A DNA stretch of 64,000 bases from Eledone cirrhosa (taxonomy: Eukaryota). Below are positions 19,485 through 59,639 of this stretch, in pieces (positions within the stretch are counted from its first letter, which is position 1; each line of letters begins with the position of its first letter). The translations under genes were made by a program, and so were the position numbers. The notes under the pieces are model-generated. The model saw nothing but the letters and a program-made list of their open reading frames with translations, was not told the DNA's origin and searched no databases. The stretch is from the NCBI GenBank assembly GCA_964016885.1, contig OZ024740.1, forward strand, positions 248,682,001-248,746,000. Reading direction: 5' to 3'.

Positions 19485-19548
<64 letters not shown>
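19484..19548 (+). repeat. (AAT)n tract, first of the array junction tracts
   Basis: Similar tracts at 23251-23289, 27976-28049, 30320-30366, 32969-33042, 38044-38060, 42908-42958, 48971-48997 and 53737-53758. Confidence 0.97.
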
Positions 19549-19550
<2 letters not shown>

Positions 19551-22500: not shown

Positions 22501-23250
22501 CCTCAAAAAGGCTACAGAAGGAATGCTAATGGCTGCGCAGGAGCAGGCCCTCAAAACGAAGTGGTTGAAGCACCATATCTACAAGGAGGAGGCTAGCCCA
22601 CTGTGCAGGATCTGTGGAGAGAGAGAGGAGACTGTGGCTCACATTGTGTCCGAGTGTAAACACCTAGCCCAGACCCACTATAAGGGCTGGAGACACGATG
22701 TGATGGGCAGGGTGATCCACTGGCACCTGTGCAAAGTAAACAATTTACCACATTCTGAGAAATGGTATGAGCATAGGCCAGAGGCGGTGATGGAGAACAA
22801 TCAGGTGAAGGTGCTGTGGGATTTTAGGATACAGACGGACAAAAAACTGGAACACAATAGACCTGACCTGGTGGTTGTGGACAAAGAAAAAAGATCGTGT
22901 CTGATTGTGGATGTGGCCTGCCCGTTCGACACGAGAGTGCAAGAGAAGGAGAGGGAGAAAATTAACCGATACCAGGACCTAAAGTGGGAGGTGAAAAGGA
23001 TTTGGAACTGCCATGAAGTCAAAGTGATACCGATTGTCATAGGCGCACTGGGGACTATCTCCAAAAGTTTCCAGGGATGGTTAAAGAAAATCGGCCCCTT
23101 CACGCTTTTTGGAACGCTTCAAAAGGCATGCTTGCTTGGAACAGCAAGAACCCTCCGATACGTCCTGAATATCTGAGGCTGCAGGTAGTGGCTTGATATT
23201 CAATCCAACGGACTTTCCAGTTAACCAACATCAATGACTGAGATTCAAGG
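19549..23250 (+). mobile_element. R4/Dong-clade non-LTR retrotransposon, family A copy 1 (leader truncated)
   Basis: Single RT-RLE ORF, short 3' UTR, flanked by (AAT)n on both sides. Confidence 0.92.
19784..23176 (+). pseudogene. R4-A1 ORF (Myb-like N-terminus, RT, CCHC, restriction-like endonuclease) with one in-frame stop
   Basis: NWTKELN..CY, KSPGPDG, YRPITCL, DYRKAFD, GIFQGDSLSP, FMDDLKL, CRICGEREETVAHIVSEC, RHD, RPDL..D..K; TGA at 20081-20083 where A2 and A4 have TGG. Confidence 0.92.
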
Positions 23251-23291
23251 AATAAAAACAATAATAATAATAATAATAATAATAATAATCA

Positions 23292-26200
23292 GGGAGAAGA
23301 CGCACGTGGTGGATAGAAGGTCGTGAAATCGCTCCCGTAAGTTTTGAATTTTTAGCATATTTAAATCATTTGTGAAATAACAACTCTTAGTACAAATGCT
23401 ACGTAAAGCACCCGGCTTGAGCCCCAAAAAAATTCGGACCCAAAATATATTGTTATAAGGCTCAAATATTCAAATATTCAACTTTATATTGTACATTGTA
23501 TATTCAAAAAAGAAAATGGCTATAAATGGAAGAAGAAGAACCCCCCCTCCTCTGTCTACACTATATAGAACAGCCAAACAACACCAATCTCACCAACACC
23601 AGAAACTAGATACACCAACTACCCCATCACCTCTCTGTGTACACTAAACACAACAACCAGATAACGGCAACTTCACTACCACCACAACCAATCTCAATGA
23701 TAATAATAAATACTATTATTATTGTCCCAAGTTTTAACAAAATGTTTAATTCCAACATTAAGGGAATTTATGTCAACACATGTACGCGACTAACCCCATA
23801 GATTCACCGAACGGACATCAGTAACGACAACGCCATCACTACAGTCACCGCCGCCGCCGCCCATCCATCATTACTACCACTATCCCGCCACCACTCCTTC
23901 ATTGCTACCACCGCTACAACACCTTCACTACAGTAATACGATCACATCACCACCACCACTGCCTCAGTATCGACATCACCACCACCACTGCCTCAGTATC
24001 GCTACCGCCGCTATTCTCTCCCATTGCTTCCTGCTAGTTGCTGCTAGCACAGCACTGCCACCACATTATAGAATTCCTACTAAAAAAGAGGAAGGCATCA
24101 AAATATATAGATAGACTCAAAAGAAAAAACAAAAATCAAAACCAAAGCAGCACAGCAACAACAACAACAAAAAAAAAACAGAGAAAAACAAAAACAAAAA
24201 AACGTAAAGAAAATAAGAATGAAGAGAGAAACAAGCGGACGGACAGAGAAGAGAAGGGGAAAACTAAGTCAGACATTCGAATACTACATTACAATGAAAC
24301 TTATGCTTATTCATTTTTGGGTTTTTTTCTGCCTGTTTGTTTGTTTGTTTATTTGTGTTCGTCTACAGCGTGGTGATAATGCCACACAAGAGCCAAGTGG
24401 AGCGACGCAACCACCGGAGACGGTGAATCCACAGATGGTTATGTAACCATACATTCGCCAATCCTCGATAAGAGTGTTTAAATATCGAACCTAAACAGTT
24501 CGAATAACGGTGAAATGGAGACTAGAACGTCATGTGACAGACTCTCACCCAACAGGTGCTCCCTGGCTCAGCAGCAGGGACCTGGCTGTCAACCAAATAC
24601 TGCTGGTGTCGGAGGAAGAAGAAGGAAAGGGACCAAAACCAACTGGACGAAAGAATTGAATAGAACTGTTATGCAATGTTACCTGAAAAGTAACCCCAAG
24701 GAGAGGGGCTATAGGAGACGGATGCATAACATCTGGAACGAGATTGGTCTATTTAAATTAGATGAACAAAAATTGGCCGGGCAGGCTCGGGTAATAAGAA
24801 CTAATGGGTGGATAAGCGAGCTGGAACTGGAGGAACTGAGCAGAGATATTAGCTTGGAGATGGAGGGTGGAGTATGCCAGGCAAACGAGCCAGTGGGAAA
24901 TGAAGGTGAAGAGGTCGAGAGAACGGAGGAACCACCCGAAGCAGACAATGATCTGAATACTGAGATAAATAATACCTGGAACAGAGATACGGCCACTGAG
25001 GAGATGAATGCTGACGGGCTAGGACAAGATTCGGTTGACATCCTAAATTTAGTGGTAGATGAATTGAACAATGATAGTGGAAGACCTATGAACCTAAGAT
25101 TTGTAGACAGGAAAAAGTTAAAAGAAACAACAGCTAAGGTAAACAAAGTCATCCCATACCTTGAGGCGAGGAGCCTTCACCAGTGCAACAATATCCTCAA
25201 AGCAACGGCAAATACGGTGAGGAAACTACTTGGTATAAAAGCGAGAGGAAACAACAGACAGGAAAGAGCAGAGCCTTGGTGGAAGACACGACTGAGTGGG
25301 CAAATCAGGGAAATGAGAAATGACATTGGAAAGCTTGAGTCACTACTGAATGGGACACTAAAAAACATAGACACTAAAATTAGACTGGAAATAAAATACA
25401 AAACTAGGAGGAAAAAGCTAAATATTATCATAGAGGAACTGAAGCAACGCATTGTAGCAAAGAGTGCAAAAATCAGGCGATACGAGAACAGAGTCAGTCA
25501 GTATAAACAGAACCGCATGTTCGACAACAACCAGAAGATGCTGTTTGGACAGCTTGAGGGGAAAGAAAGAGGCAACGACTTAAAACCTGAGGCGGAACAA
25601 ACTAAAACATTCTGGAGAGGAATATGGGAGCAGGATGTTAGACATAATGACCAGGCAGTGTGGATTGAGACAGTACAGAGGGAGATCGGTGAGCAGGCAC
25701 ACCAACAAACTGATTTGAGTATCACAGTTGAAACTCTTAAGGGGCAGGCCAAAAAACTAACCAACTGGAAATCACCAGGCCCAGATGGTGTGCAGGGGTA
25801 TTGGATTAAAAATATAACATCCCTCCACCCGAAACTGACAACCATGTTCAATGACTGCTTGATGTCAGGTGAGGTACCAGAGTGGTTGACAAAAGGTACC
25901 ACAGTTCTGATAATGAAAGACCGAATCAAGGGTAATGATGTTACCAACTATAGACCTATCACATGTCTGTCCGTAATGTGGAAACTGTTGACGAGCATTG
26001 TGTCTGAGGAAATCTACCATCACCTCCACACAAACAACTTGTTACCGGACGAACAGAAAGGATGCCGAAAGAAGTCACGTGGTACAAAGGACCAGTTACT
26101 TATTGATAAGATGGTAATGGGGAATTGCAGGAGGAGACACACTGATCTTGCCATGGGATGGATAGACTACAGAAAGGCATTTGACATGGTGCCTCATTCT

Positions 26201-27974
26201 TGGATCACCAAAAGCCTGGAGATCTTCAAGGTGGCAGATAACATCAGACAGTTGTTGGGCAAGAGTATGAGGTCCTGGGAAACAGAGTTGACATCAACTG
26301 GAGAATCCTTGGGAAGCGTGAAGATCAAGAGAGGTATCTTCCAGGGAGATAGCCTGTCCCCTCTGTTGTTTGTCCTAGCCCTGATGCCCCTGACCAGTGT
26401 ACTGCGAAAAGTGAGAGCAGGATACAGGTTGGGAAAGGGAGGGCTTACCATCAATCACCTCCTCTTCATGGACGATCTTAAGCTCTTCGGGAAGAGTGAG
26501 AAGGAGTGTGCTTGTTGACACTGTCCGTATTTTCAGCAGTGATATATGTATGCAGTTTGGTATTAGTAAGTGTGGAGCCATTGTGATGAGGAGGGGTAGG
26601 TTGAGCAGAAGTAACGGAATCCAGATACCAACAGGTGAGATGATAAAGGAAATTGACTCTGAGGAAGGATACAAGTATTTGGGCGTTCTGGAGGTTGATG
26701 GCATAAAGAACAAAAAAATGAAGGAATTGTTAAGAACTGAATACATTCGGAGAGTAAGGAGCGTATTAAAGTCACATCTGAACAGCAGAAATGCCATAAG
26801 CGCAGTAAATTCCCGAGCTGTGTCTATTTTTAGGTACAGTGCGGCAATTCTGAGATGGAATGTTGCTGAACAAAAAGAAATGAATAGGAAGACTAGGAAG
26901 CTATTGACTATCTACAACATGTTCCACAAGAGGAGTGATGTCGATAGACTCTACCTAAGGAGATCTGAGGGTGGAAGAGGTCTTATAAGCATAGAGGACT
27001 GTGTTCAGATGGGGAAAAACAACCTACACAAATACGTGACTGATAGTAAGGAGCCAATGCTCAGAACTGTACTGAAGGAGGGGACAATAGGCCAGGGGAT
27101 GTCCAAGGAGGAAATAACATCAAGGAGAAAGAGCAGCCTTCAGGAAAAATCCCTTCATAGTACCTTCTTTGAGAAAACTGAATTTAGAGATCCACAGACA
27201 TGGAACTGGTTGAGAAGAGGAGACCTTAAAAAGGCTACAGAAGGAATGTTAATGGCTGTGCAGGAGCAGGCCCTCAAAACGAAGTGGTTGAAACACCATA
27301 TTTACAAGGAGGAGGCTAGCCCACTGTGCAGGATCTGTGGAGAGAGAGAGAAGAGACTGTGGCTCACATTGTATCCGAGTGTAAACACCTAGCCCAGACT
27401 CACTATAAGGGCTGGAGACATGATGTGATGGGCAGGGTGATCCACTGGCACCTGTGCAAAGTAAACAATTTACCACATTCTGAGAAATGGTATGAGCATA
27501 AGCCAGAGGCGGTGATAGAGAACGATCAGGTGAAGGTGCTGTGGGATGTTAGGATACAGACGGCCAAGAAACTGGAACACAATAGACCTGACCTGGTGGT
27601 TGTGGACAAAGAAAAAAGATCGTGTCTGATTGTGGATGCGGCCTGCCCATTCGACACGAGAGTGCAAGAGAAGGAGAGGGAGAAAATTAACCGATACCAG
27701 GACTTAAAGTGGGAGGATAAAAGGATTTGGAACTGCCATGAAGTCAAAGTGATCCCGATTGTCATAGGCGCACTAGGTACTATCTCCAAAAGTTTCCAGG
27801 GATGGTTAAAGAAAATCGGCCCCTTCACGCTTTTTGGAACGCTTCAAAAGGCATGCTTGATGGAAACAGCAAGAACCCTCCGATACGTCCTGAATATCTG
27901 AGGGTGCAGGTAGTGGCTTGATATTCATTCCAACGGACTTTCCAGTTAACTAACATCAATGACTGAGATTCAAG

Positions 27975-27975
<1 letters not shown>
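23292..27975 (+). mobile_element. R4/Dong family A copy 2, full length with ~1.2-kb leader; ORF 24515-27901 frameshifted twice
   Basis: Leader starts GGGAGAAGACGCAC immediately after (AAT)n; frameshifts near 26505 and 27350. Confidence 0.92.
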
Positions 27976-28049
<74 letters not shown>

Positions 28050-28050
<1 letters not shown>

Positions 28051-30318
28051 GACATACAATCCCAAAAATTACAGACCGATAAGACAAACAATCCCAAAAA
28101 TTACAGACCGATATCTTGCTTGACCACAATGTATAAAATTTTAACATCAGTACTAACTGAATACACATATGACCACCTGATAACAAATGACCTATTTCCC
28201 ATTGAGCAGAAAGGGTGTAAACGAGGCTCATATGGCTGTAAGGATCAGCTTTTGGTTAACAAAATGATACTGGAAGATTGTCATAATAGACACAAAAATA
28301 TATCAATTGCTTGGATTGATTATAAAAAAAGCATTCGATAGTTTGCCACACAGTTGGATTGAAAAATGTTTAGAGATTTTCAAAATATCCCCCGTTGTCA
28401 GGAGGTTTTTGTCATTCAGTATGAAGACATGGAAAACGACACTCCTTTTGATTAGTGAAACAAAATCACTGGAAGCTGGAGAAGTTAATATTAATTGCGG
28501 AATTTTTCAGGGTGACTCTTTATCACCGCTTTTATTCTGCATCGCACTTATACCATTAAGTAAAATGCTCAATGAAACAAAACATGGATATAAAGTCTAT
28601 GACAAAACTATTAATCACTTGTTCTACATGGATGAGCTGAAACTATTTGCAAAAAATTATGAACAATTGCAAGGGCTATTATCCACTGTGGAGCAGTTCA
28701 GTGATGACATTAAAATGGAGTTTGGACTAGATAAATGCGCCAAAGCAACGTTCACCAGAGGAAAGCTGCTGAAAAGTTCAGACATTAATCTTGATCGGGG
28801 GAATGTGATAAGAGAACTTGATCAAGAGGAAACTTACAAATATCTAGGTGTTTGTGAAGGAGACGGAATCAAGCACTCGACAATGAGGGAAAGGATAAGG
28901 AAGGAATATTACCGCAGAGTAAGAGCAATCTTAAGAACGGAATTGAATGCAAGGAATAGGATCGATGCCATAAACACGCTTGCCATACCAGTAGTAACCT
29001 ACAGTTACAATGTCATCAACTGGTCAAGCACAGAGATCCGTAGGCTCGATACAAAAATTCGAAAATTCTTAACCATGCACAGAATGCATCACCCTAAGGC
29101 AGATATAGATAGAATATATCTCCCTAGGAAAGAAGGAGGACGTGGGTTAATCCAGTTAGACATTGCGTTGAAAACTGCAACAATTGGATTATCTACATAT
29201 CTAAGGGAATCACATGATTGGATGATCAAACTCGTTTTGAAACACGAAAGCATCAAAAGATCATATTCCATTACAAAAGATGCACAAAGATACAGTAATG
29301 GACTACAAATTTCAGAAGTCCCATTTACTGCTGAAATGGAAAACACAGAAAAAGCAAAGCAGGTAAAAGTAACTGCAAAGAAAGAACTGCTACAGAAACT
29401 GGCTAAGAAATGGCAAGAAAAGCCTCTGTATGGAAAATACCCAGAGCGAGCTAACAATCCTGATGTTGACAAAACTTTAACCCATCAGTGGTTGGCATCC
29501 TCTGGACTGAAATCGGAGACTGAAGGACTGATTATATCAGCACAAGATCAGTGTCTGCCAACAAAAAATTACCAAGCCAACATAATAAAAAATGGATGCA
29601 GCCCATTATGCCGTGTATGCAAAAAACAACCAGACACCATTGACCATATAATTTCAATGTGCAGTCCTATAGCTCCAACCGAATACCTAAACAGGCATGA
29701 CAGAGCTGCACAATACATACATTGGATAATGTGTAAGCATTTTGACCTGCCCCATCAAAAGAATTGGTGGGAGCATCAACCACCTCCCATACTTGAAAAA
29801 GATCACATCTCAATCTTGTGGAACTTTAGCATCCAAACAGACCGAAAAATAGATGCAAATAGACCTGATATAATATTGAAGGACTTTAAAAAGAGGGTAT
29901 GCCTGCTAATTGATATGTCTGTTCCAATAGACAAGAATGTATCTATAAAAACATTTGAAAAATTGAGCAAGTATAAGGACCTGGAGATAGAAATTGGAAA
30001 AATGTGGAAATTGAGAACTAAAACAATACCAGTGGTTGTAGGCGCTCTGGGAATGATACCTAAGGGGTCTAATGATTACTTATCGCAAATCCCAGGAAAC
30101 CCGTGTATAGGAGAAATACAAAAGATAGTACTAATGGGAACTGCCCATATACTAAGGAAGATTCTGTCAATATAATTACATCACAAGTCTAAACACTAAA
30201 GATGCATTTGTGAGTATGTATGTTCTTTCTTGAACATGGCGGACCTTGTTGTCTCTTGAGGTCACTGGTTGTGACTTGGTGATAACTCGTATGAACATAA
30301 AGCAAGATAAATGCAACT

Positions 30319-30320
<2 letters not shown>
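28050..30320 (+). mobile_element. R4/Dong family B copy 1, 5'-truncated
   Basis: Starts at NPKNYRP; YMDE instead of YMDD; CRVCKKQPDTIDHIISMC, RHD, RPDI; stop at 30175; (AAT)n tail. Confidence 0.92.
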
Positions 30321-30366
<46 letters not shown>

Positions 30367-30368
30367 TA

Positions 30369-32967
30369 GGGAAGAAGACGCACATGGTGGATAGAAGGTC
30401 GTGAAATCGCTCCCGTAAGTTTTGATTTTTTAACATATTTAAATCAATTGTGAAATAACAATTTTTAGTACAAATGATGCATAAAGCATCCGGCTTGAGT
30501 CCCAAAAAAATTCGGATACATAATATATTGTTATATCGCTCAAATATTCAATTTTGTATTATACATTTTATATTCAAAAAAGAAAATGGTTATAAATGGA
30601 AGAAAACCTCCTCTGTCTACACTATATAGAACAGCCAAATAACAGCAATTTCACCAACACCAAAAACTAGATACACCACCTACCCCATCACCCCTCTGTG
30701 TACACTAAACACAACAGCCAGATAACGGCAATTTCACCACCACCACCACCAATCTCAGCATAATAATAATAATTACTATTATTATTGTCTCAAGTTTTAA
30801 CAAAATGTTTAATAACAAAATGTTTAAATCCAATATCAAGGAAATATGTCAACACATATACGCGTCTAACCCCATAGATTCTCCGATCAAACAAAAATAC
30901 AGTCTATTTAACAAAACTCAGTAACGACAACGCCATCACTACAGTCACCGCCGCCGCCGCCCATCCATCATTACTACCACTATCCCATCACCGCCGCCAC
31001 CACTCCTTCATTGCTACCACCGCTATCCCCCCATTACCTTCTGTTAACTTACGAAAGGGGAAGATGGCGGTATCACTAGACAATATTAATAAACAAGATT
31101 AATATTTAATTTTGGATCAGGAATGTTAGAGTCGAAAAGGAGGAAAATGACAAAATGACTAAATAACTAAAGATAATTTCACCACCAACACCACCACCAC
31201 TACCACGATGAAAACTATGGTCAAGTCGACTCAACCGCTATTTCTACTCCAACTTCAACACCATCACTACACTAATGCGAACACATCACCACCACCACTG
31301 CCTCATTATCACTACCGCCGCTATTCTCTCCCACTACCTCCTGCTAGTTGCTGCTAGCACAACACCGCCACCACCACCACCACCACTGCCTCAATATCAC
31401 TACCGCCGCTATTCTCTCACCGCTGCCCCCTGCTACATTGTAGAATCCACACTAAAAGAGGAAGGCATCAAAATATATAAATAGACTGAATTGATGACCC
31501 GGTCAAAATCAAAAAAACAAAAATCAAAATCAAAGCAGCACAGCAACAACGAAAAACGTAAAGAAAATAAGAATGAAGAGAAAAACAAACAGACGGACAG
31601 AGAAGGGAAGGGAAAAACTAAGTCAGACGTTCAAACACTACATTACAATGAAACTTATGCTTATTCATTTTTGGGGGTTTTTTTTGCCTGTTTGTTTGTT
31701 TGTTTATTTATGTTCGTCTACAGCGTGATAATGCCACACAAAAATCACGTGGAGTGACGAAACCACCGGAGTTGATAAATTCACCGGTGGTTATGTAACC
31801 ATACATTCGCCAATCCTCGATAAGAGTGTTTAAATGTTGAACCTAAACAGTTCGAATAACGGTGAAATGGAGACTAGAATGTCATGTGACAGACTCTAAC
31901 CCAACAGGTGCTCCCTGGCTCAGCAGCAGGGACCTGGCTGTCAACCAAATACTGCTGGTGTCGGAGGAAGAGGCCTTATCAGCATAGAGGACTTTGTTCA
32001 GATGGAGAAAAACAACCTGCACAAATACGTGACTGATAGTAAGGAGCCAATGCTCAGAACTGTACTGAAGGAGGGGACAATAGGCCAGGGGATATCCAAG
32101 GAGGAAATAACATCAAGGAGAAAGAGCAGCCTTCAGGAAAAATCCCTTCATAGTACCTTCTTTGAGAAAACTGAATTTAGAGATCCACAGACATGGAACT
32201 GGTTGAAAAGAGGAGACCTTAAAAAGGCTACAGAAGGAATGTTAATGGCTGCGCAGGAGCAGGCCCTCAAAACGAAGTGGTTGAAACACCATATTTACAA
32301 GGAGGAGGCTAGCCCACTGTGCAGGATCTGTGGAGAGAGAGAGAAGAGACTGTGGCTCACATTGTATCCGAGTGTAAACACCTAGCCCAGACTCACTATA
32401 AGGGCTGGAGACATGATGTGATGGGCAGGGTGATCCACTGGCACCTATGCAAAGTAAACAATTTACCACATTCTGAGAAGTGGTATGAGCATAAGCCAGA
32501 GGCGGTGATAGAAAACGATCAGGTGAAGGTGCTGTGGGATTTTAGGATACAGACGGACAAGAAACTGGAACACAATAGACCTGACCTGGTGGTTGTGGAC
32601 AAAGAAAAAAGATCGTGCCTGATTGTGGATGTAGCCTGCCCATTCGACACGAGAGTGCAAGAGAAGGAGAGGGAGAAGATTAACCGATACCAGGACTTAA
32701 AGTGGGAGGTAAAAAGGATTTGGAACTGCCATGAAGTCAAAGTGGTCCCGATTGTCATAGGCGCACTAGGTACTATCTCCAAAAGTTTCCAGGGATGGTT
32801 AAGGAAAATTGGCCCCTTCACGCTTTTTGGAACGCTTCAAAAGGCATGCTTGCTGGGAACAGCAAGAACCCTCCGATACGTCCTGAATATCTGAGGCTGC
32901 ATGTAGTGGCTTGATATTCATTTCAACAAACTTTCCAGTTAACTAACATCAATGACTGAAACTCAAA

Positions 32968-32968
<1 letters not shown>
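30369..32968 (+). mobile_element. R4/Dong family A copy 3, internally deleted (no RT), both ends intact
   Basis: Leader and ORF start (ATG 31867) joined at GGAAGA (~31966) to the post-RT region; RLE and 3' UTR retained. Confidence 0.9.
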
Positions 32969-33043
<75 letters not shown>

Positions 33044-33780
33044 GTTTTTTGATTTTTAACATATTTAAATCAATTGTGAAAGAACAATTCTTAGCACAAA
33101 TGTTGCATAAAGGCACCGAATGAGGTCCCATAAAGTTTCGGATCCATATTATATTGTTGTATCCATATTATATTGTTGTATCGCTCAAATATTCAATTTT
33201 GTATGATATATTTTGTATTCAAAAAAAGAAAATGGTTATAAATGGAACAAAACACCCTCTGTCTACACTATATAGAACAGCGGCAATTTCAATTTCACCA
33301 ACACCAGAAACTTGATACACTACCTATCCCATCACACTAAATATAACGGCAACTTCACCGGCATCATAATAATAATTACTATTATTATTGTCTCAAATTT
33401 AAAAAAATGTTTAATTCAAATTTTACGGGAATATGTCAACACAAAATATAATGAAAATATATATTAAACATACGAACACAAACTCATAGATACTATATCA
33501 GTAACCACAACACCACCGCTGCCACCATTCCACCACATCCATCATCGCCGCCACCACTCATTCAATGCTACTGACACTATTCCCCTGTTAACTTGAGAGA
33601 GAAAAGGGAAGGTGGTGGTAGCACTAGACAAGAGAGAGGCTAGCAAAAGATATAAATAGATTGACTTGGTGACCTTGCCACGGACAAACGTCTACATCAA
33701 CAATTATGGGACTGCTGGCTCACCCCTTCCTCACCAACAATATAAAAAGCCCCGGCACCACCACCGACATAGCCAGCACG

Positions 33781-34005
33781 GTAGAGGGTCGGACGCCATG
33801 CTTTCCAGCATAGTTACGTCCCTTTACGATCTGAGTTCAAATCCCGCCGAGGTTGACTTTGCCTTTCATCCTTACGGGGTAGATAAAATAAAGTACCAGT
33901 AATGCACTGGGTAATTGCTGGCCTTGTGCCTAAAGTAGAAACAATTATATTATTGTAATGCACTGGGTGATTGCTGGCCTTGTCCCTGGAGTGGAGACAA
34001 TTATT
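33781..34005 (+). mobile_element. 5'-truncated tRNA-derived SINE in the B2 leader, with a duplicated 3' segment
   Basis: Nearly identical to 11881-12043; GTAATGCACTGGGT..GCTGGCCTTGT occurs twice; absent from the B3 leader. Confidence 0.85.
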
Positions 34006-34252
34006 AATAATTTCATTCTTAAGCCACGCAATGCTCACATTAAGGAACCACTCATGATAATAACAATTTAAAAAAAAACAACAAAAATAAAACCCCGTGA
34101 CCAAGAAATACCGGGATGGCGGCCGGCGGGGAATAGCCATGTCTCTAGGGGAGAACGACCCCTCTAGTCTTGGTTGACACTCGTTCTAGAAGTGGTAACA
34201 CGAAAAGATTACCCCTTGGCGGATAAGGATAAAACGCGACAAAATAAAGTAG

Positions 34253-37200
34253 ATGTCTAATGATGAAATCTCATACCGGATCGGCCGTCACCCGGGTAAA
34301 AAAGGGCCGCGTCCCTCAGAGAGGAACCAGACTGGGGTCGAAAAATCAGCTAATGGTTCAAACCTTCCCATCACTTCGGAGCTGGAGACCTCCCATAACC
34401 GGAATACTCCTACTGTTGGCCCTCCATGCTCACCACCAAGAAATCCAAAGAAAAAGAGAGAAAAATGGTCAAGGGAAGATAATAAAGAAGTCCTTGAGGC
34501 TTTCTATACTGCCATGTACTACCCATCAAATACATCGAATACAGAGCAAACATATATCAACTGGAAAAAGAAACATCCCGAAAACAGAGGCTATATTGAC
34601 AGTAACAAACTAGCCAATATACGAAGAAATATTGTAAGAAAAAAGTTACTAACTGATATAGAAATTGATCAGATCAAGCTAGTAGCACAAAGTCAGCGAA
34701 GGGAAAATGAAGCACGTGTCAGTGAAAACGAGGTAAACTGTAACACTTCGAATCCCAGAGTTGGGGCGGAATCACTGGCAACAGAACAAATTAAAGAAAG
34801 GAGCGAAAAAATGGAGGGAGTGCATGCTCAGGATGAAACTCCAAATGAAAATAATGAGATCGTAAATGATAAAGAAATGAATGAGAATGAACTTGCCAAC
34901 TTGAAGGATGAAATTATGATCGAATGGATGAAAATGAAAGAAACTGACATGGGGGAACGAGACACCCTCCCTAAGATCCAGAACTCCAAACAGAACCAAA
35001 AGATAATACACAAGACTAACATAATTCTCAAAAACATTATCATCACAAACAAAATAAACATTACTGACTTAAATCATCTCTATTATGCATCGGCTAAAGT
35101 CACCACTCACTTATGTGGAGTGAAGATGAAAAAACAAAGGAATTCCCACAAGAAATCTACTTGGCAAGATAACATCAATCGCCAAATAAACCTTCTCCGA
35201 TCTGACATAGAAATTTTAACAAACTATAAAGTAGGTGAACATGTTAAACAAACTAAACTTAGAAAATTGAAAAAAAAGTACAGTATAAGATCAACATGTG
35301 ACATAGACATGCTGATAGAAACAATCAAGCAAAAAGTGTCGGCCAAAGCTGCTCGTATAAGGCGCTTTGAAAAACGATCTAGATTCTATAAGGACAATAA
35401 TATGTTCAAAAACAACCAAAGAAACTTCTACAGAAAAATTGGTAAGTCAACAATAACTGCTAAATCAATACCACCCAAGGAGGAAGTGCAAGAATTCTGG
35501 GAAAAGATCTGGGCCGAAGAAAAAGTTCATAACATACATGCCCCATGGATAGACAGACAAATGAAAGAAACAGCTCACCTTGAAGAACAAACATGGGAAA
35601 ATATAACAGTTGAACAGCTGCGCTTGGCTCTAAGAAAAACCAGCAAATGGAAATCCCCAGGAAAAGACAAAATACAAAACTTTTGGATAAATGCCTTCAC
35701 AGAGTCTCATGAGCTGTTGGCCCAACTTTACAATGAAATAGTTAAGGAGCCAGAAAAGATACCATCATGGCTAGTTAACGGCATTACATTCCTGCTACCG
35801 AAGAATGATGAGACAAACAATCCCAAAAATTACAGACCGATAACCTGCTTGACCACAATGTATAAAATTTTAACATCAGTCCTAACTGAATACACATATG
35901 ACCACCTGATAACAAATGACCTATTTCCCATTGAGCAGAAAGGGTGTAAACGAGGCTCATATGGCTGTAAGGATCAGCTTCTGGTTAACAAAATGATACT
36001 GGAAGATTGTCATAATAAACACAAAAATCTATCGATTGCTTGGATAGATTATAAAAAAGCATTTGATAGTTTGCCACACAGTTGGATTGAAAAATGTTTA
36101 GAGATTTTCAAAATATCCCCCGTTGTCAGGAGGTTTTTGTCATTCAGTATGAGGACATGGAGAACGACACTCCTTTTGAATAGTGAAACAAAATCACTGG
36201 AAGCTGGAGAAGTTAATATTAATTGTGGAATTTTTCAGGGTGACTCTTTATCACCGCTTTTATTCTGCATCGCACTTATACCATTAAGTAAAATGCTCAA
36301 TGAAACAAAACATGGATATAGAGTCTATGACAAAACCATTAATCACCTGTTCTACATGGATGACCTGAAACTATTCGCAAAAAATGATGAACAATTGCAA
36401 GGGCTATTATCCACTGTGAAGCAGTTCAGTGATGACATTAAAATGGAGTTTGGACTGGATAAATGCGCCAAAGCAACGTTCACCAGAGGAAAGCTGCTGA
36501 AGAGTTCAGACATTAATCTTGATCGGGGGAACGTGATAAGAGAGCTTGATCAAGAACAAACTTACAAATATCTAGGTGTTTGTGAAGGAGACGGAATCAA
36601 GCACTCGACAATGAGGGAAAGGATAAGGAAGGAATGTTACCGCAGAGTCAGAGCAATCTTAAGAACGGAATTGAATGCAAGGAATAGGATCGATGCCATA
36701 AACACGCTTGCCATACCAGTAGTAACCTACAGTTACAATGTCATCAACTGGTCAAGCACAGAGATCCGTAGGCTCGATACAAAAATCCGAAAATTCTTAA
36801 CCATGCACAGAATGCATCACCCTAAGGCAGACATAGATAGAATATATCTCCCTAGGAAAGAAGGAGGACGTGGGTTAATCCAGTTAGACATTGCGTTGAA
36901 AACTGCAACAATTGGATTATCCACATATCTAAGGGAATCACATGATTGGATGATCAAACTCGTTTTGAAACACGAAAGCACCAAAAGATCATATTCCATT
37001 ACAAAAGATGCACAAAGATACAGTAATGGACTACAAATTTCAGAAGTCCCATTTACTGCTGAAATGGAAAACACAGAAAAAGCAAAGCAGGTAAAAGTAA
37101 CTGCAAAGAAAGAACTGCTACAGAAACTGGCTAAGAAATGGCAAGAAAAGCCTCTGTATGGAAAATACCCAGAGCGAGCTAACAATCCTGATGTTGACAA

Positions 37201-37903: not shown

Positions 37904-38060
37904 GTACATCACAAGTCTAAACACTAAGGATGCATGTGTGAATATGTGTGTTCTTTCTTGAACATGGCGGACCTTGTTGTCTCTTGAGGTCACTGGTTGT
38001 GACTTGGTGATAACTCGTATAAACATAAAGCAAGATAAATGCAAATAATAATAATAATAA

Positions 38061-41000
38061 GGGGAAGAAGACGCACGAGGTGACGGAGGTCATGAAATCG
38101 CTCCCGTAAGTTTTGAATTTTTAACATATTTAAATCATTTGTGAAATAACAACTCTTAGTACAAATGCTACGTAAAGCATCCGGCTACAGCCCCAAAAAT
38201 ATTCGGACCCAAAATATATTGTTATAAGGCTCAAATATTCAAATATTCAACTTTGTATTGTACACTGTATATCCAAAAAAAAATGGCTATAAATGGAAGA
38301 AGAAGAACCCCCCCCCCCCTCCTCTCCTCTGGCTACACTATATAGGACAGCTAAACTCACCAACACCAGAAACTAGATACACCACCCACCCCATCATCTG
38401 TGTACACTAAACACAACAGCATTTTCACCTTCACCGCCACCGCTCACTACGGCCATCATTACCACCACTATCCCATCACCGCCGCCACCACCCCTTGACT
38501 CCTTCACTGCTGCTGCCACCGCTACAGCACCATCACTACAGTAATACGGCTCAAATATTCAAATATTCAACTTTGTATTGTACACTGTATATCCAAAAAA
38601 AAAATAAAATGGCTATAAATGGAAGAAGAAGAACCCCCCCCCCTCCTCTCCTCTGGCTACACTATATAGGACAGCGAAACTCACCAACACCAGAAACTAG
38701 ATACACCACCCACCCCATCATCTGTGTACACTAAACACAACAGCATTTTCACCTTCACCGCCACCGCTCACTACGGCCATCATTACCACCACTATCCCAT
38801 CACCGCCGCCACCACCCCCTGACTCCTTCACTGCTGCTGCCACCGCTACAGCACCATCACTACAGTAATACGGTCGCATCACCACCACCACTGCCTCGGT
38901 ATCGACATCACCACCACCACTGTCTCAGTATCGCCAACGCCGCCAGTCTCTGCTGGCTACCACTTCCACATTATAGAATCCCTACTACTAACAAAGAGGA
39001 AGGCATCAAAATATATAGATAGACTCAAAAGAAAAAAGAAAAAACAAACAACAAAAGCAGCACAGCAACAACAGTAAAAAACGAGAAAAACAGAGAAAAA
39101 CAAAAACAAAAAAAGAAACCCCAAAAACGTAAAGAAAATAAGAATGAAGAGAGAAGCAGGCGGACGGACAGAGAAGAGGGGGGAAAAAGTAAAACTTAAA
39201 AAACAAAAACTAAGTCAGACATTCGAATACTACATTACAATGAAACTTATGCTTATTCATTTTTGGGGCCCTTTCTGCCCGTGTGTTTGTTTGTTTATGT
39301 GTGTCCGTATACAGCGTGGTGATAATGCCACACAAGGGCCAAGTGGGATGGCGGATCCACAGATGGATATGTAAACATACATTCGCCAATCCTCGATAAG
39401 AGTGTTTAAATATCGAACATAAACAGTTCGAATAACGGTGAAATGGAGACTAGAACGTCATGTGACAGACTCTCACCCAACAGGTGCCCCCTGGCTCAGC
39501 AGCAGGAACCTGACTGTCAACCAAATACTGCTGATGTTGGAGGAAGAAGAAGAAGGAAAGGGGCCAGAACCAACTGGACGAAAGAATTGAATAGAACTGT
39601 TATGCAATGCTACCTGAAAAGTAACCCCAAGGAGAGGGGCTACAGGAGACGGATGCATAACATCTGGAACGAGATTGGTTTATTTAAATTAGATGAACAA
39701 AAATTGGCCGGGCAGGCTCGGGTAATAAGAACTAATGGGTGGATAAGCGAGCTGGAACTGGAGGAACTGAGCAGAGAGAATGGCTTGGAGATGGCGGGTG
39801 TAGTATGCCAGACAAGCGAGCCGGCGGGAAATGAAGGTGAGGAGGTCCTGAGAACGGAGGAACCACCCGAAGCAGACAATGATCTGAATACTGAGATAAA
39901 TAATACCTGGAACAGAGATACGGCCACTGAGGAGATGAATGCTGACGGGCTAGGACAAGATTCGGTTGACATCCTAAATTTAGTGGTAGATGAGTTGAAC
40001 AATGATAGTGGGAGACCTATGAACCTAAGATTTGTAGACAGGAAAAAGTTAAAAGAAACAACAGCTAAGGTAAACAAAGTCATCCCATACCTTGAGGCGA
40101 GGAGTCTTCACCAGTGCAACAATATCCTCAAAGCAACAGCAAATACGGTGAGGAAACTACTTGGTATAAAAGCGAGAGGAAACAACAGACAAGAAAGAGC
40201 AGAGCCGTGGTGGAGGAAGCGACTGAGTGGGCAAATCGGGGAAATGAGAAATGACATAGGAAAGCTTGAGTCACTACTGAATGGGACACTAAAAAACATA
40301 GGCACTAAAAATAGACTGGAAATAAAATACAAAACTAGGAGTAAAAAGCTAAATATTATCATAGAGGAATTGAAGCAACGCATTGTAGCAAAGAGTGCCA
40401 AAATCAGGCGATACGAGAACAGTCAGTCAGTATAAACAGAACCGCATGTTCGACAACAACCAGAAGATGCTGTTTGGACAGCTTGAGGGGAAAGAAAGAG
40501 GCAACGACTTGATCCCTGGGGCGGAACAAGCTAAAACATTCTGGAGAGGAATATGGGAGCAGGATGTTAGACACAATGCCCAGGCAGGGTGGATTGAGAC
40601 AGTACAGAGGGAGATCGGTGAGCAGGCACAGCAACAGACTGATTTGAGTATCACAGTTGAAACTCTTAAGGGGCAAGCCAAAAAAGTAACCAACTGGAAA
40701 TCACCAGGCCCAGGTGGTGTGCAGGGGTATTGGATTAAACATTTAACATCCCTCCACCCGAAGCTGACGGCCATGTTCAATGACTGCTTGGTGTCGGGTG
40801 AGGTGCCAGAGTGGTTGACAAAAGGTACCACAGTTCTGATAATGAAAGACCGAATCAAGGGTAATGATGTTACCAACTATAGACCTATCACATGTCTGCC
40901 CGTAATGTGGAAACTGTTGACGAGCATTGTGTCTGAGGAAATCTACCATCACCTCCACACAAACAACTTGTTGCCGGACGAACAGAAAGGATGCCGAAAG

Positions 41001-42907
41001 AAGTCACGTGGTACAAAGGACCAGTTGCTTATTGATAAGATGGTAATGGGGAATTGCAGGAGGAGACACACTGATCTTGCCATGGGATGGATAGACTACA
41101 GAAAGGCATTTGACATGGTGCCTCATTCCTGGATCACCAAAAGCCTGGAGATCTTCAGGGTGGCAGATAACATCAGACAGTTGCTGGGCAGGAGTATGGG
41201 GTCCTGGGAGACAGAGTTGACATCAACTGGAGTATCCTTGGGAAGAGTGAAGATCAAGAGAGGTATCTTCCAGGGAGATAGCCTGTCCCCTCTGTTGTTT
41301 GTCCTTGCCCTGATGCCCTTGACCATTATGCTGCGAAAAGTGAGAGCAGGATACAAGTTGGGAAGGGGAGAGCTTACCATCAATCACCTCCTCTTCATGG
41401 ACGATCTTAAGCTCTTCGGGAAAAGTGAGAAGGAGTTGGATGTGCTTGTTGACACTGTCCGTATTTTCAGCAGTGATATATGTATGCAGTTTGGTATTGG
41501 TAAATGTGGAGTCATTGTGATGAGGAGGGGTAGGTTGAGCAGAAGTAACGGGATCCAGATACCAACAGGTGAGATGATAAAGGAAATTGACTCTGAGGAA
41601 GGATACAAGTATTTGGGCGTTCTGGAGGCTGATGGCATAAAGAACAAAAAAATGAAGGAATTGTTAAGAACTGAATACATTCGGAGAGTAAGGAGCGTAT
41701 TGAAGTCACATCTGAACAGCAGAAATGCCATACGCGCAGTAAATTCCCGAGCTGTGTCTATTATTAGGTACAGTGCGGGAATCCTGAGATGGAATGTTGC
41801 TGAACAAAAAGAAATGGATAGGAAGACTAGGAAGCTATTGACTATCTACAACATGTTCCACAAGAGGAGTGATGTCGATAGACTCTACCTAAGGAGATCT
41901 GAGGGTGGAAGAGGTCTTATCAACATAGAGGACTGTGTTCAGATGGAGAAAAACAACCTATACAAATACGTGACCTATAGTAAGGAGCCAATGCTCAGAG
42001 CTGTACTGAAGGAGGGGACAGTAGGCCAGGGGATACCCAAGGAGGAAATAACATCAAGGAGGAAGAGCAGCCTTAAGGGAAAATCCCTTCATAGTACCTT
42101 CTTTGAGAAAACTGAATTTAGAGATCCACAGACATGGAACTGGTTGAGAAGAGGAGACCTCAAAAAGGCTACAGAAGGAATGCTAATGGCTGCGCAGGAG
42201 CAGGCCCTCAAAACGAAGTGGTTGAAGCACCATATCTACAAGGAGGAGGCTAGCCCACTGTGCAGGATCTGTGGAGAGAGAGAGGAGACTGTGGCTCACA
42301 TTGTGTCCGAGTGTAAACACCTAGCCCAGACCCACTATAAGGGCTGGAGACACGATGTGATGGGCAGGGTGATCCACTGGCACCTGTGCAAAGTAAACAA
42401 TTTACCACATTCTGAGAAATGGTATGAGCATAGGCCAGAGGCGGTGATGGAGAACAGTCAGGTGAAGGTGCTGTGGGATTTTAGGATACAGACGGACAAA
42501 AAACTGGAACACAATAGACCTGACCTGGTGGTTGTGGACAAAGAAAAAAGATCGTGCCTGATTGTGGATGTGGCCTGCCCGTTCGACACGAGAGTGCAAG
42601 AGAAGGAGAGGGAGAAAATTAACCGATACCAGGACCTAAAGTGGGAGGTGAAAAGGATTTGGAACTGCCATGAAGTCAAAGTGATCCCGATTGTCATAGG
42701 CGCACTGGGGACTATCTCCAAAGGTTTCCAGGGATGGTTAAAGAAAATCGGCCCCTTCACGCTTTTTGTAACGCTTCAAAAGGCATGCTTGCTTGGAACG
42801 GCAAGAACCCTCCGATACGTCCTGAATATCTGAGGCTGCAGGTAGTGGCTTGATATTCAATCCAACGGACTTTCCAGTTAACCAACATCAATGACTGAGA
42901 TTCAAGG
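38061..42907 (+). mobile_element. R4/Dong family A copy 4, full length; ORF 39443-42833 with one frameshift near 40420
   Basis: Leader starts GGGGAAGAAGACGCAC; ORFs 39443-40435 and 40395-42833 together give the complete protein. Confidence 0.92.
38228..38873 (+). repeat. ~320-bp tandem duplication within the A4 leader
   Basis: GGCTCAAATATTCAAATATTC...CAGTAATACGG starts at 38228 and again at 38548. Confidence 0.9.
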
Positions 42908-42919
42908 AATAACAATAAC

Positions 42920-42958
<39 letters not shown>

Positions 42959-42960
<2 letters not shown>

Positions 42961-48900: not shown

Positions 48901-48970
48901 TTTACAATTGTTAAAGCGTTCAAAATTTACAGTACCTTACAGAGCCGAGCCTCCGTCAACCATAGCATTC
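42959..48970 (-). mobile_element. L1/Tx1 family L1-b, apparently full length, inserted in (ATT)n
   Basis: 5' UTR, ORF1 48755-46675 (CCHC, one frameshift), ORF2 46639-43220 (APE, RT, CCHC; premature stop near 45902), 3' end AATAAAGAAATC; (AAT)n on both sides. Confidence 0.93.
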
Positions 48971-48997
48971 AATAATAATAATAATAATAATAATAAT

Positions 48998-49195
48998 AGA
49001 AACTGGAACACAATAGACCTGACCTGGTGGTTGTGGACAAAGAAAAAAGATCGTGTCTGATTGCGGATGTGGCCTGCCCATTCGACACGAGAGTGCAAGA
49101 GAAGGAGAGGGAGAAAATTAACCGATACCAGAACTTAAAGTGGGAGGTAAAAAGGATTTGGAACTGCCATGAAGTCAAAATGATCCCGATTGTCA
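48998..49195 (+). mobile_element. R4/Dong family A RLE fragment (copy 5)
   Basis: KLEHNRPDLVVVDKEK...KMIPIV, fused directly to the middle of a leader. Confidence 0.88.
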
Positions 49196-52100
49196 GCAAT
49201 TTCACCAACACCAGAAACTAGATACACCACCTACCCCATCACCCCTCTGTGTACACTAAATACAACAGCCAGATAACGGCAATTTCCCCACCACCACCAC
49301 CACCAATCCCAGTATAATAATAATAATTACTATTATTATTGTCTCAAGTTTTAACAAAATGTTTAATTCCAATATTAAAGAAATATGTCAACACATATAT
49401 TAAACATACGCGACAAATGCATAGATACACAGATCAAACAAAACTACAGTCTATTCAACAAAACTCAGTAACGACAACGCCATCACTATAGTCACCGCCG
49501 CCACCACTCCATCCATCATTGCTACCACTATCCCATCACCGCCGCCACCACTCCTTCATTGCTACCACCACTATTCCCCCATTACCTTCTGTTAACTTAA
49601 GAAAGGGGAAGGTGGCGGTATCACTAGACAAGGGAGAGGCTAGCAAAGATATAAATAGATTGACTTAGTGACCCGGCCACCGGCCAAACGTCAACGACTA
49701 TGACACTGCTGGCTACCCCCTTCCCCACCAACAATAGAAAAATCCCCAGCACCACCACCGACATAGCCAACAACAATAACAGGCAACTTCAGCAAAAAGT
49801 ATATTATATTATTAATAATTTCATTCTTAAGCCACGCAATGCTCACATTAAGGAACCACTCATGAGAATAACAATTTAAAAAACAACAAAAAAGAAAACC
49901 CCGTGACCAAGAAATACCGAGATGGCGGCCGGCGGGGAATAGCCGTGTCTCTAGGGGAGGGTGACCCCTCTAGTCTTGGTTGACACTCGTCCTAGAAGTG
50001 GTAACACGAAATGATTACCCCTTGGCGGATAAGGATAAAACGCGACAAAATAAAGTAAATGTCTAATGATAAAATCTCATACCGGATCGGCCATCACCCG
50101 GGTCAAAAAGGGCCGCGTTCCTCAGAGAGGAACCAGACTGCGGTCGAAAAATCAGCTAATGGTTCAAACCTTCCCATCACTTCGGAGCTGGAGACCTCCC
50201 ATAACCGGAATACTCCTACTGTTGGCTCTCCATGCTCACCACCAAGAAATCCAAAGAAAAAGAGAGAAAAATGGTCAAGGGAAGATAATAAAGAAGTCCT
50301 TGAGGCTTTCTACACTGCCATGTACTACCCATCAAATACATCGAATACAGAACAGACATATATCAACTGGAAAAAGAAACATCCCGAAAACAGAGGCTAT
50401 ATTGACAGTAACAAACTAGCCAATACACGAAGAAATATTGTAAAAAAAAAGTTACTAACTGATATAGAAATTGATCAGATCAAGCTATTAGCACAAAGTC
50501 AGCGAAGGGAAAATGAAACATGTGTCAGTGAAAACGAGGTAAATTGTAACACTTCGAATCCCAGGGTTGGGGCGGAATCACTGACAACAGAACAAATTAA
50601 AGAAAGGATCGAAAAAGTGGAGGGAGTGCATGCTCAAGATGAAACTCCAAATGAAAACAATGAGATCGTAAATGATAAAGAAATGAATGAGAATGAACTT
50701 GCCAACTTGAAGGATGAAATTATGATCAAATGGATGAAAATGAAAGAATCTGACATGGGGGAACGAGACACCCTCCCTAAGATCCAGAACTCCAAACAGA
50801 ACCAAAAGATAATACACAAGACTAACATAATTCTCAAAAACATTATCAACACAAACAAACTAAACATTACTGATTTAAATCATCTCTATTATGCATCGGC
50901 TAAAGTCACCACTCACTTATGTGGAGTGAAGATGAAAAAACAAAGGAATTCACACAAGAAATCTACTTGGCAAGAGAACATCAATCGCCAAATAAACCTT
51001 TTCCGATCTGACATAGAATGTTAACAAACTATAAAGTAGGTGAACATGTTAAACAAACTAAACTAAAATTGAAAAGAAAGTACAGTATAAAATCAACAAG
51101 TGACATAGACATGCTGATAGAAATAATCAAGCAAAAAGTGTCGGCCAAAGCTGCTCGTATAAGGCGCTTTGAAAAACGATCTAGATTCTATAAGGACAAT
51201 AATATGTTCAAAAACAACCAAAGAAACTTCTACAGAAAAATTGGTAAGTCAACAATAACTGCTAAATCAATACCAACCAAGGAGGGAGTGCAAGAATTCT
51301 GGGATAAGATCTGGGCCGAAGAAAAAGTTCATAATATACATGCCCCATGGATAGACAGACAAATGAAAGATACAGCTCACCTTGAGGAACAAATATGGGA
51401 AAATATAACAGTTGAACAGTTGCGTTTGGCTCTAAGAAAAAACAGCAAATGGAAATCCCCAGGAAAAGACAAAATACAAAATTTTTGGATAAATGCCTTC
51501 ACAGAGTCTCATGAGCTGTTAGCCCAACTTTACAATGAAATAGTTAAGGAGCCAGAAAAGATACCATCATGGCTAGTTAACGGCATTACATTCCTGCTTC
51601 CGAAGAATGATGAGACAAACAATCCCAAAAATTACAGACCGATAACTTGCTTGACCACAATGTATAAAATTTTAACATCAGTCCTAACTGAATATACATA
51701 TGACCACCTGATAACAAATGACCTATTTCCCATTGAGCAGAAAGTGTGTAAACGAGGCTCATGTGGCTGTAAGGATCAGCTTTTGGTTAACAAAATGATA
51801 CTGGAAGATTGTCATAATAGACACAAAATTCTATCAATTGCTTGGATAGATTATAAAAAAGCATTCGATAGTTTGCCACACAGTTGGATTGAAAAATGTT
51901 TAGAGATTTTCAAAATATCTCCCGTTGTCAGGAGGTTTTTGTCATTCAGTATGAAGACATGGAAAACGACACTCCTTTTGAATAGTAAAACAAAATCACT
52001 GGAAGCTGGAGAAGTTAATATTAATTGTGGAATTTTTCAGGGTGACTCTTTATCACCGCTTTTATTCTGCATCGCACTTATACCATTAAGTAAAATGCTC

Positions 52101-59554: not shown

Positions 59555-59558
59555 CTCT

Positions 59559-59636: not shown

Positions 59637-59639
<3 letters not shown>

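What the first reader, a model, noticed from the sequence alone, without database searches (positions are those of the whole stretch)
23292..50058. Two divergent R4 families share one ~1.2-kb 5' leader module
Seen: the A and B ORFs and 3' UTRs differ strongly, yet the non-coding blocks before A2 (23292), A3 (30369), B2 (33043), A4 (38061) and B3 (49196) share long near-identical stretches. Examples are CATATTTAAATCA.TTGTGAAA, CTACACTATATAG.ACAGC and CACCAACACCAGAAACT.GATACAC. Complete copies start at the same point (GGGA(A)GAAGACGCAC) right after (AAT)n, and no (AAT)n junction separates leader from ORF. Only the portion nearest the ATG is family-specific. Inference: one promoter/leader cassette was captured or exchanged between families; alternatively it is an independent non-autonomous module that rides on both. 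A TATAAA (GGCTATAAATGG, ~23520) is conserved.
Basis: partly seen in the sequence, partly recalled or inferred. Interest (0 to 1): 0.78.

Follow-up and report, generated by a model that had tools for sequence, protein, structure and literature searches.

The report
Two retrotransposon families trade front ends
Two very different jumping-gene families that insert into the same (AAT)n repeats carry a common front section, and copies across the genome show that it passed from one family to the other at least twice, once in each direction, which likely amounts to swapping their on-switch.

Summary
Confirmed and extended. A and B are (AAT)n-targeting R4/Dong-like retrotransposons: 39% protein identity, saturated silent sites, but leaders 80-95% alike. 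The leader is the true 5' UTR of both families genome-wide, not a local product or a free module. A 21-mer at its start has 1,791 exact hits; the first 30 lead to A (20), B (9) or a stub (1). Only about 0.65-0.8 kb is shared. Older copies show repeated exchange, not one capture: (I) the oldest A and B leaders are already colinear; (II) a B leader (+1 to ~715) was joined onto a truncated older A leader (226 junction copies, one at 31082), and the younger A leaders sampled descend from it; (III) an A2-type leader was joined back onto B (at least 7 loci). A-leader monophyly is rejected (AU p=2e-5). Both joins are non-homologous with 3-4 nt microhomology, likely made during integration. A and B alternate in tandem arrays (79 of 108 pairs). 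Promoter function is untested, no ribozyme was detected, and the TATA at 23520 is not conserved in old copies. It resembles mammalian L1 5' UTR recruitment, but runs both ways between deeply diverged lineages.

The parts
19547..23250 (+). Copy A1, 5'-truncated at the start of the A-specific part of the UTR; longest open frame 20132-23176 (RT, CCHC, restriction-like endonuclease motifs)
23251..23289 (+). (AAT)n tail of A1 and target of A2
23292..24514 (+). A2 5' leader/UTR, full start; 23292-23916 is B-derived, 24260-24514 is clearly A-specific
23518..23529 (+). First TATA-like motif (+227); not conserved in old A leaders
24065..24075 (+). Position homologous to the donor breakpoint of the A-to-B graft (the chimeras lie elsewhere in the genome)
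24105..24115 (+). Second TATA-like motif, also at 31475, 33650, 39013 and 49649; found in every subfamily sampled
24515..27975 (+). A2 body, ORF broken into three frames
28049..30319 (+). Copy B1, 5'-truncated inside the ORF, with a 32-bp duplication at its 5' junction
30369..31082 (+). A3 leader, first part: a B3-type leader (+1 to ~715), 89% to B copy L064
31080..31100 (+). B-to-A graft junction: 3-nt microhomology, a short duplicated stretch and an 8-nt filler; 226 copies genome-wide
31097..31866 (+). A3 leader, second part: the older A leader from about +180 on, then the A-specific UTR
31867..32968 (+). A3 body with a large internal deletion at 31962/31963
33043..34252 (+). B2 leader, first ~50 nt missing; shared part ends at ~33680; SINE insertion 33779-33953; a ~45-nt SINE tail piece also found in other B2-type copies
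34253..37903 (+). B2 ORF, intact, 1216 aa; many near-identical intact copies in the genome
38062..39442 (+). A4 leader, full start, with a 324-bp tandem duplication (38224-38873)
39443..42907 (+). A4 body, ORF in two frames
48999..49195 (+). A-ORF fragment without its 3' end, fused directly to B3; no remainder after the B3 tail
49196..50058 (+). B3 leader, first ~275 nt missing; the type that donated to A; shared part ends at ~49679
50059..53736 (+). B3 body, frameshifted, with a short internal deletion at 53120

Best explanation
The leader is the shared 5' UTR of two (AAT)n-targeting retrotransposon families; it was joined from one family onto a 5'-shortened copy of the other at least twice, once each way, likely while a new copy was being integrated in or next to a copy of the other family, and it likely carries the internal promoter. 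Shown: the leader sits on both bodies genome-wide; the two junctions and their copy numbers; the order of subfamilies; the alternation of A and B in arrays. Inferred: the 3' end of the truncated cDNA pairs by 3-4 nt of microhomology with the leader of a genomic copy of the other family, and the DNA in between is lost. Transcription from the captured +1 then gives a chimeric RNA that ends in the newcomer's own 3' UTR and is mobilised by its own ORF. Later internal deletions trim the doubled leader (A3 type to L119, A2 and A4 types). After the B-to-A graft the new type appears to have replaced the old A leader. Odds for the joining step: capture from neighbouring DNA at integration ~45%, RT switch between RNAs ~40%, later deletion in a tandem ~15%.
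For: Linkage: 1,791 exact hits of the start motif, control 0. The first 30 give 20 A, 9 B and 1 stub; 28 of 30 have AAT/AAG-rich flanks. Discordance: in the tree of the first ~230 nt (77 of 118 rows, near-identical young rows thinned) young A leaders nest inside the B ladder, with 5 label changes and 0 of 200 bootstrap trees giving one. The AU test rejects A monophyly at p=2e-41, and at p=1.9e-5 without the two obvious chimeras. The ORF-side trees of A (32 rows) and B (38 rows) each run from old to young. Graft II: the A3 leader is B3-type +1-715 (89%; 93% for L096) plus an older A leader from ~+180; 226 junction hits, and 12 of 12 fetched lead to A. Graft III: A2-type +1-614 plus B leader from +361; 5 pattern hits on four contigs, all leading to B, plus L261 and L262 with a 14-nt duplication at the join. 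Event I: the oldest B-type leader (L301) is colinear with old A over ~520 nt at 72-73%. Joins: 3-nt and 4-nt microhomology, with a short duplication and filler at II, like ordinary 5' junctions here (4 of 30 with short extra or duplicated starts; 32-bp duplication at 28049). Young B copies are fused to the interior of clearly older A copies with no remainder downstream in 2 of 4 cases checked (L303, L304). Substrate: of 108 R4-R4 neighbours among 155 tails, 79 are A-B or B-A (p=2.4e-6). Replacement: A copies with the old start have 5' ORF identity 84-94% to A2 (18 copies), those with the new start 91-99% (19 copies).
Against: No RNA data, so the promoter role and the start site are untested. 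The junctions cannot tell an RNA donor from a DNA donor. Both donor breakpoints fall ~10 nt apart on homologous coordinates, 20-30 nt upstream of the second TATA motif; this fits a defined RNA end better than random DNA capture, although n=2. Of the four fused fragments, the window's own is young (97% to A2) and L305 is ambiguous. The direction of event I is unknown, and L301 lacks its ORF (it is typed as B by its UTR match to L278 and L178). The leader tree's bootstrap had not fully settled (0.983). The genome-order samples are the first 30 hits (C1; C1 and C2 for the old start), and the motif searches only see leaders that keep the motif. A third family with a more diverged leader would be missed, and no 5' end was found for the R4-like fragments that are 45-55% identical to B.
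Confidence: 0.72

Rival explanations
1. Same history, but the joins were made by the reverse transcriptase jumping from a broken template RNA onto a leader RNA of the other family, perhaps a short RNA with a defined 3' end just upstream of the second TATA motif.
For: The two donor breakpoints lie ~10 nt apart on homologous coordinates. Donor and recipient were active at similar times in graft III. L114/L309 has a 360-nt A piece without a 3' end in front of a full-length start, with no remainder downstream. R2 RT jumps to other RNAs in vivo (PMC3414825, passages).
Against: Fused A pieces at L303 and L304 are closest to old A copies while the B copies are younger, so capture from DNA happens here. 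The hairpin before the breakpoint has no consensus fold across 27 copies. n=2 breakpoints.
Confidence: 0.35
2. Ordinary homologous recombination or gene conversion between related leaders in A-B tandems homogenises them, with no link to retrotransposition.
For: Hetero-tandems are common and the leaders are 75-95% alike, so the substrate exists. It could explain small unmapped patches.
Against: Both mapped joins are at non-homologous positions and duplicate leader sequence (B+715 to A+180; A+614 to B+361). It cannot explain the first sharing, when the leaders were unrelated.
Confidence: 0.12
3. One capture long ago, then vertical inheritance in each family.
For: The oldest A and B leaders sampled are already related.
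Against: The AU test rejects A monophyly; two later junctions are mapped and present in many copies.
Confidence: 0.02
4. The leader is an independent non-autonomous element that rides on or inserts before both families.
For: One of 30 genome-order hits is a 100-nt stub with no body (L117/L298); 5 of 30 old-type hits had no ORF within 1.5 kb.
Against: 29 of 30 young hits run into A or B with no (AAT)n or tail between. The old exceptions are interrupted or rearranged copies with different ends. No shared 3' end for a free form was seen.
Confidence: 0.03
5. The conserved front is not a promoter but an HDV-like self-cleaving ribozyme, as in Dong and R4, which releases the RNA from read-through transcripts of the arrays.
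For: Dong and R4 cleave at their 5' junction (PMC3774820, passages). The start here is sharp and begins with G, and arrays would give read-through.
Against: No Rfam match in the leaders at E<=5 (23000-34400). The consensus fold of the first 140 nt is -0.18 kcal/mol with 0 of 7 pairs compensatory (20 rows, two from one locus). z-scores are -0.7 to +0.9 for 4 of 4 single folds. My HDV descriptor found 0 hits in 9 leaders, but it had no positive control.
Confidence: 0.1

Closest known systems
Mammalian L1 5' UTR (promoter) recruitment, mouse L1 (Sookdeo et al. 2013, PMC3600994; passages read)
   Same: Repeated replacement of the 5' UTR, re-use of a UTR from another family, recombinant families that become the active lineage, and the same candidate mechanisms (DNA recombination, heteroduplex at insertion, RT strand switch). 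The tandem duplication in the A4 leader recalls L1 monomers (recalled).
   Different: Mouse L1 families form mostly one ORF2 lineage. Here donor and recipient are 39% identical in protein and the transfer went both ways. That paper links coexistence of families to non-homologous promoters, whereas here two families coexist with homologous leaders.
R2/R1 hybrid SIDEs and R2 template jumps to U12/tRNA in Drosophila (Eickbush and Eickbush 2012, PMC3414825; passages read)
   Same: The 5' end of one non-LTR family is joined to the 3' end of another that shares its locus; jump versus non-homologous recombination was left open there too.
   Different: SIDEs are short, non-autonomous and described as rare, and the module is a ribozyme. 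Here the chimeras keep a full ORF and reach hundreds of copies.
Dong (Bombyx mori) and R4 (Ascaris), R4 clade (PMC3774820; passages read)
   Same: Single RT plus restriction-like endonuclease ORF; (TAA)n target as in Dong; sharp 5' end.
   Different: Their 5' ends carry HDV-like ribozymes; none was detected here. The passages I saw do not mention UTR exchange.
Octopus Dong-R4 LINEs (PMC13282606, passages and one supplement searched; PMC9115989, passages)
   Same: Dong-R4 is abundant and recently active in Octopus vulgaris (5 recently active families, 1,129 insertions; 51 families in all).
   Different: 'UTR', 'chimer' and 'promoter' do not occur in the main text of PMC13282606; neither paper's passages describe leader sharing. 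I could not compare sequences with their libraries.

Membership tests
R4/Dong clade non-LTR retrotransposon | Single long ORF with a non-LTR reverse transcriptase | tested here: met
   RVT_1 in A and B; intact 1216-aa B ORF; best solved relatives are R2 proteins
R4/Dong clade non-LTR retrotransposon | C-terminal CCHC knuckle and restriction-like endonuclease, no APE domain | tested here: met
   C-x2-C-x7-H-x4-C and RPD..D..P..K motifs read in the alignment (motif definition recalled); no Exo_endo_phos hit in A or B
R4/Dong clade non-LTR retrotransposon | Placement in the R4 clade by RT phylogeny | not tested
   No named R4, NeSL or Hero reference was on hand; homologue and atlas hits carry no clade names. 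The label rests on architecture and target, so 'R4/Dong-like' is the supported wording.
Dong-type elements | Insertion into (TAA)n microsatellites | tested here: met
   28 of 30 young starts have AAT/AAG-rich flanks; the tails in the window are (AAT)n
Dong-type elements | HDV-like ribozyme at the 5' end (reported for Dong and R4; not the clade definition) | tested here: inconclusive
   Negative in Rfam, consensus folding and a descriptor without positive control; a divergent ribozyme is not excluded
R2 clade | 28S rDNA target site | tested here: not met
   Copies are dispersed in (AAT)n on many contigs
L1-type 5' UTR recruitment (process) | 5' UTR tree discordant with ORF lineage, with the recombinant becoming an active family | tested here: met
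L1-type 5' UTR recruitment (process) | The recruited segment carries the internal promoter | not testable with these tools
   No RNA holder was listed; needs CAGE or a reporter assay
Independent non-autonomous element (SINE/SIDE) | Free copies with their own 3' end or tail | tested here: not met
   29 of 30 run into an A or B body, and the exception is a stub without tail

The most novel reading that the evidence does not exclude
Two anciently diverged retrotransposon lineages behave as one regulatory population: they draw on a common, fast-evolving promoter leader that is passed back and forth through their interleaved (AAT)n arrays, so leader age rather than family predicts relatedness, and each successful graft sweeps through the recipient family, for example by escaping host silencing of the older leader. 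A short leader RNA ending just before the second TATA motif may be the standing donor.
Probability: 0.3. Interest if true: 0.72.

Novelty: new variant of a known kind. Interest (0 to 1): 0.52.

Why it matters
How LINEs gain new promoters is a long-standing question, studied mostly in mammalian L1. Here both parents, the junction sequences, the intermediates and the order of events are all present in one genome, between lineages as far apart as 39% protein identity and in both directions. That makes donor route (RNA or DNA) and selective advantage directly testable. It also runs against the idea that coexisting LINE families need unrelated promoters, and it means repeat libraries built by clustering can misassign the 5' ends of these abundant, recently active elements.

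Tried and rejected
Rfam scan of 23000-34400: four matches at E 0.9-4.6, all far below their gathering scores. HDV descriptor: 0 hits in 9 leaders and 0 in shuffles, no positive control. Conserved fold of the first 140 nt: none. Hairpin upstream of the second TATA: predicted in single copies (z -1.1 to -2.7) but no consensus; not claimed. Internal start 30 nt below the second TATA: no cluster of 5' ends there among 293 mapped of 477 (AAT)n junctions (the sample is biased to leaders). Expression: no RNA holder listed. Other organisms: contigs of runs X5-X8 cover the A ORF and parts of the leader, and X6 has both A4-type and B2-type loose ends, but no listed piece spans the stretch, none listed bridges the graft junction, and I cannot tell relatives from carried-over DNA; not used as evidence. 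Search for a different ancestral B 5' UTR: 20 of 41 hits to an old B fragment were extended; the four that reached the 5' region carried the leader or its 3' part. A possible fourth exchange (a ~150-nt block in old B leaders matching the A-specific block at 65-67%, E~1e-10) is unresolved. Co-mobilisation of A-B pairs as the cause of alternation is not supported: neighbours often differ in age, for example young B before old A in 5 of 5. One extension fetched the wrong neighbour (L306) and was replaced (L309). Literature: searches returned no listing that describes 5' UTR exchange between R4/Dong families; only open-licence papers are searched, and Repbase/Dfam records were not visible. No earlier scan notes exist for this genome.
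Full report
What is in the window. From 19547 to 42958 lies an array A1-A2-B1-A3-B2-A4, each copy ending in (AAT)n, and a further B copy (B3) sits at 49196-53762. Both families have one ORF with a non-LTR RT, a CCHC knuckle and restriction-like endonuclease motifs (read; motif definition recalled). The nearest solved structures are R2 proteins. With the (AAT)n target this is R4/Dong-like; clade placement by phylogeny was not tested. A and B are 39% identical in protein and 25 of 82 four-fold sites match, so the split is ancient. The genome is 3.0 Gb. I take it to be an octopod from a recalled resemblance of the SINE at 33779; no call names it.

The observation. The leaders align at 80-95% over the first ~280 nt, and A3 matches B3 at 400/423 columns, better than B2 matches B3 at 294/337. 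The shared part ends ~0.4 kb before the ATG. B2 and B3 are 5'-truncated in the window. The TATAAA at 23518 reads TACAAA or TACGAA in four old A leaders. A second TATA-like motif (24105, 31475, 33650, 39013, 49649) was found within one mismatch in 27 of 32 copies picked across all subfamilies, but truncated copies do not cluster below it.

Genome-wide linkage. The 30 best hits to the A2 leader all lead to A, and the 30 best to the B3 leader all lead to B (six are one tandem array). Of the 30 best hits to the B 5' region, 24 have the front part of the leader and 6 are truncated. These sets are ranked by similarity, so I also took hits in genome order. A 21-mer near the start has 1,791 exact hits with control 0, and the first 30 are 20 A, 9 B and one 100-nt stub. 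A B-specific 20-mer has 1,696 hits, and of its first 30, 24 have the front part, 2 the rear part, and 4 are truncated below the leader. The leader is thus the 5' UTR of both families, not a local product and not a free module.

Older copies. Extending 40 hits to an old A fragment gave two old A copies with an older leader of the same start. A motif from that older start has 254 hits; the first 30 are 21 A, 4 B and 5 interrupted. The oldest B copies found (L178 and L278, ORF 86-90% to B2) carry the rear part of the leader. L301, typed as B by its UTR, is colinear with old A over ~520 nt at 72-73%. Sharing is therefore older than any young subfamily (event I, direction unknown).

Tree conflict. 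In a tree of the first ~230 nt (77 of 118 rows; near-identical young rows thinned), old A forms a clade, B forms a ladder, and young A leaders nest inside the B ladder; two B copies nest inside the A2 type. Five label changes are needed, starred branches force three, and 0 of 200 bootstrap trees give one; the bootstrap had not fully settled. The AU test rejects A monophyly at p=2e-41, and at p=1.9e-5 without those two B copies. ORF-side trees for A and B each run from old to young.

Two mapped grafts. Graft II (B to A): the A3 leader is a B3-type leader from +1 to ~715 followed by an older A leader from ~+180. The join at 31080-31100 has 3 nt of microhomology, a short duplicated stretch and an 8-nt filler. 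It occurs 226 times, and 12 of 12 fetched lead to A. L119, A2 and A4 types are shortened versions of this doubled leader. Graft III (A to B): an A2-type leader to ~+614 is joined to a B leader at ~+361 with 4 nt of microhomology. The pattern finds 5 loci on four contigs, all leading to B; L261 and L262 add two with a 14-nt duplication, and L177 has a deletion across the join. A copies with the old start are 84-94% to A2 in the 5' ORF (18 copies) and those with the new start 91-99% (19 copies), which fits replacement after graft II.

How the joins were likely made (inferred). Both joins are non-homologous, which argues against plain recombination. The duplication and filler at graft II resemble ordinary 5' junctions of these elements. 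Four B copies are fused directly to A pieces that lack a 3' end, with no remainder downstream (window 48999, L303, L304, L305). In two of them the A piece is closest to old A while the B copy is younger; one is ambiguous and one is young. So integration can join a new copy to the inside of an older neighbour. Substrate is plentiful: among 155 tails, 108 are followed by an R4 copy, and 79 of these are of the other family (16 A-A, 43 A-B, 36 B-A, 13 B-B; p=2.4e-6; loci were chosen by the downstream copy). Neighbours often differ in age, so the alternation is not co-mobilisation; loss of same-family tandems by recombination is my untested explanation. In favour of an RNA route, the two donor breakpoints are ~10 nt apart on homologous coordinates, and R2 RT jumps templates in vivo (PMC3414825, passages). 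I put DNA capture at integration at ~45%, an RNA switch at ~40% and later deletion at ~15%.

What the leader does (inferred). 5' ends cluster at +1 (biased sample). The first ~110 nt are the best conserved part between old and young copies (78-85%; partly selected by the search motif), and both grafts include them. They show no conserved fold and no Rfam match, unlike the HDV-like ribozymes of Dong and R4 (PMC3774820, passages); my descriptor scan was also negative but had no positive control. An internal promoter is the most likely role and is untested.

Comparison and verdict. The process works like 5' UTR recruitment in mouse L1, where 11 replacements were estimated within a mostly single lineage (PMC3600994, passages), and like R2/R1 hybrid SIDEs. 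It differs in being two-way, repeated, between autonomous lineages at 39% identity, with chimeras that amplified. Nine searches of open-licence papers listed nothing on this for R4/Dong, and the octopus repeat papers (passages and one supplement search) do not mention it in what I saw. Repeat-database records were not visible and could bear on novelty. Verdict: real, a new variant of a known kind, interest 0.52.

Noticed in passing
genome-wide loci L001-L309; window 19547-42958: A and B alternate in tandem arrays more than chance (79 of 108 neighbours are of the other family, p=2.4e-6). Cause not established; collapse of same-family tandems or a target preference are candidates.
   Followed up: partly
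window 43220-48970 (-) and 15434-19480 (-): An L1/Tx1-like element (ORF1, APE, RT, zf-RVT) has its 5' end against the same (AAT)n runs, in the opposite orientation to the R4 copies; the same arrangement is seen in many fetched loci.
   Followed up: no
window 33779-34003: A SINE inserts into (ATT)n runs, including runs inside the leader. A ~45-nt piece of its 3' end is present in B2-type and intermediate B leaders at many loci, so it was fixed in a master copy.
   Followed up: partly
window 38224-38873: The 324-bp leader duplication of A4 recurs in several A4-type copies (L092, L101, L113, L116), a monomer-like gain in the youngest A subfamily.
   Followed up: partly
L219 (G000:C19:32376196-32382288), 735-2197: A B leader in which a ~45-50-nt C-rich block has expanded into about 25 tandem copies.
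   Followed up: no
L071, L072, L080-L083 (G000:C2:353.61-353.64 Mb): Six near-identical B copies head to tail at a ~4.9-kb period, probably a segmental amplification.
   Followed up: no
L132:3376-4481; L161:2840-4493; L142; L086; L036: Fragments of further R4-like families 44-63% identical to B in protein; their 5' ends were not found.
   Followed up: no
old B leaders L230, L238, L224, +370 to +520: A block matching the A-specific part of old A leaders at 65-67%, possibly a fourth exchange.
   Followed up: partly
window 3509-4426 (-): Integrase (rve) fragment, presumably of an LTR element.
   Followed up: no
window 7000-11000, 56500-60300, 61800-64000: Copies of a second RT plus zf-RVT family, about 73% to the L1/Tx1-like element.
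   Followed up: no
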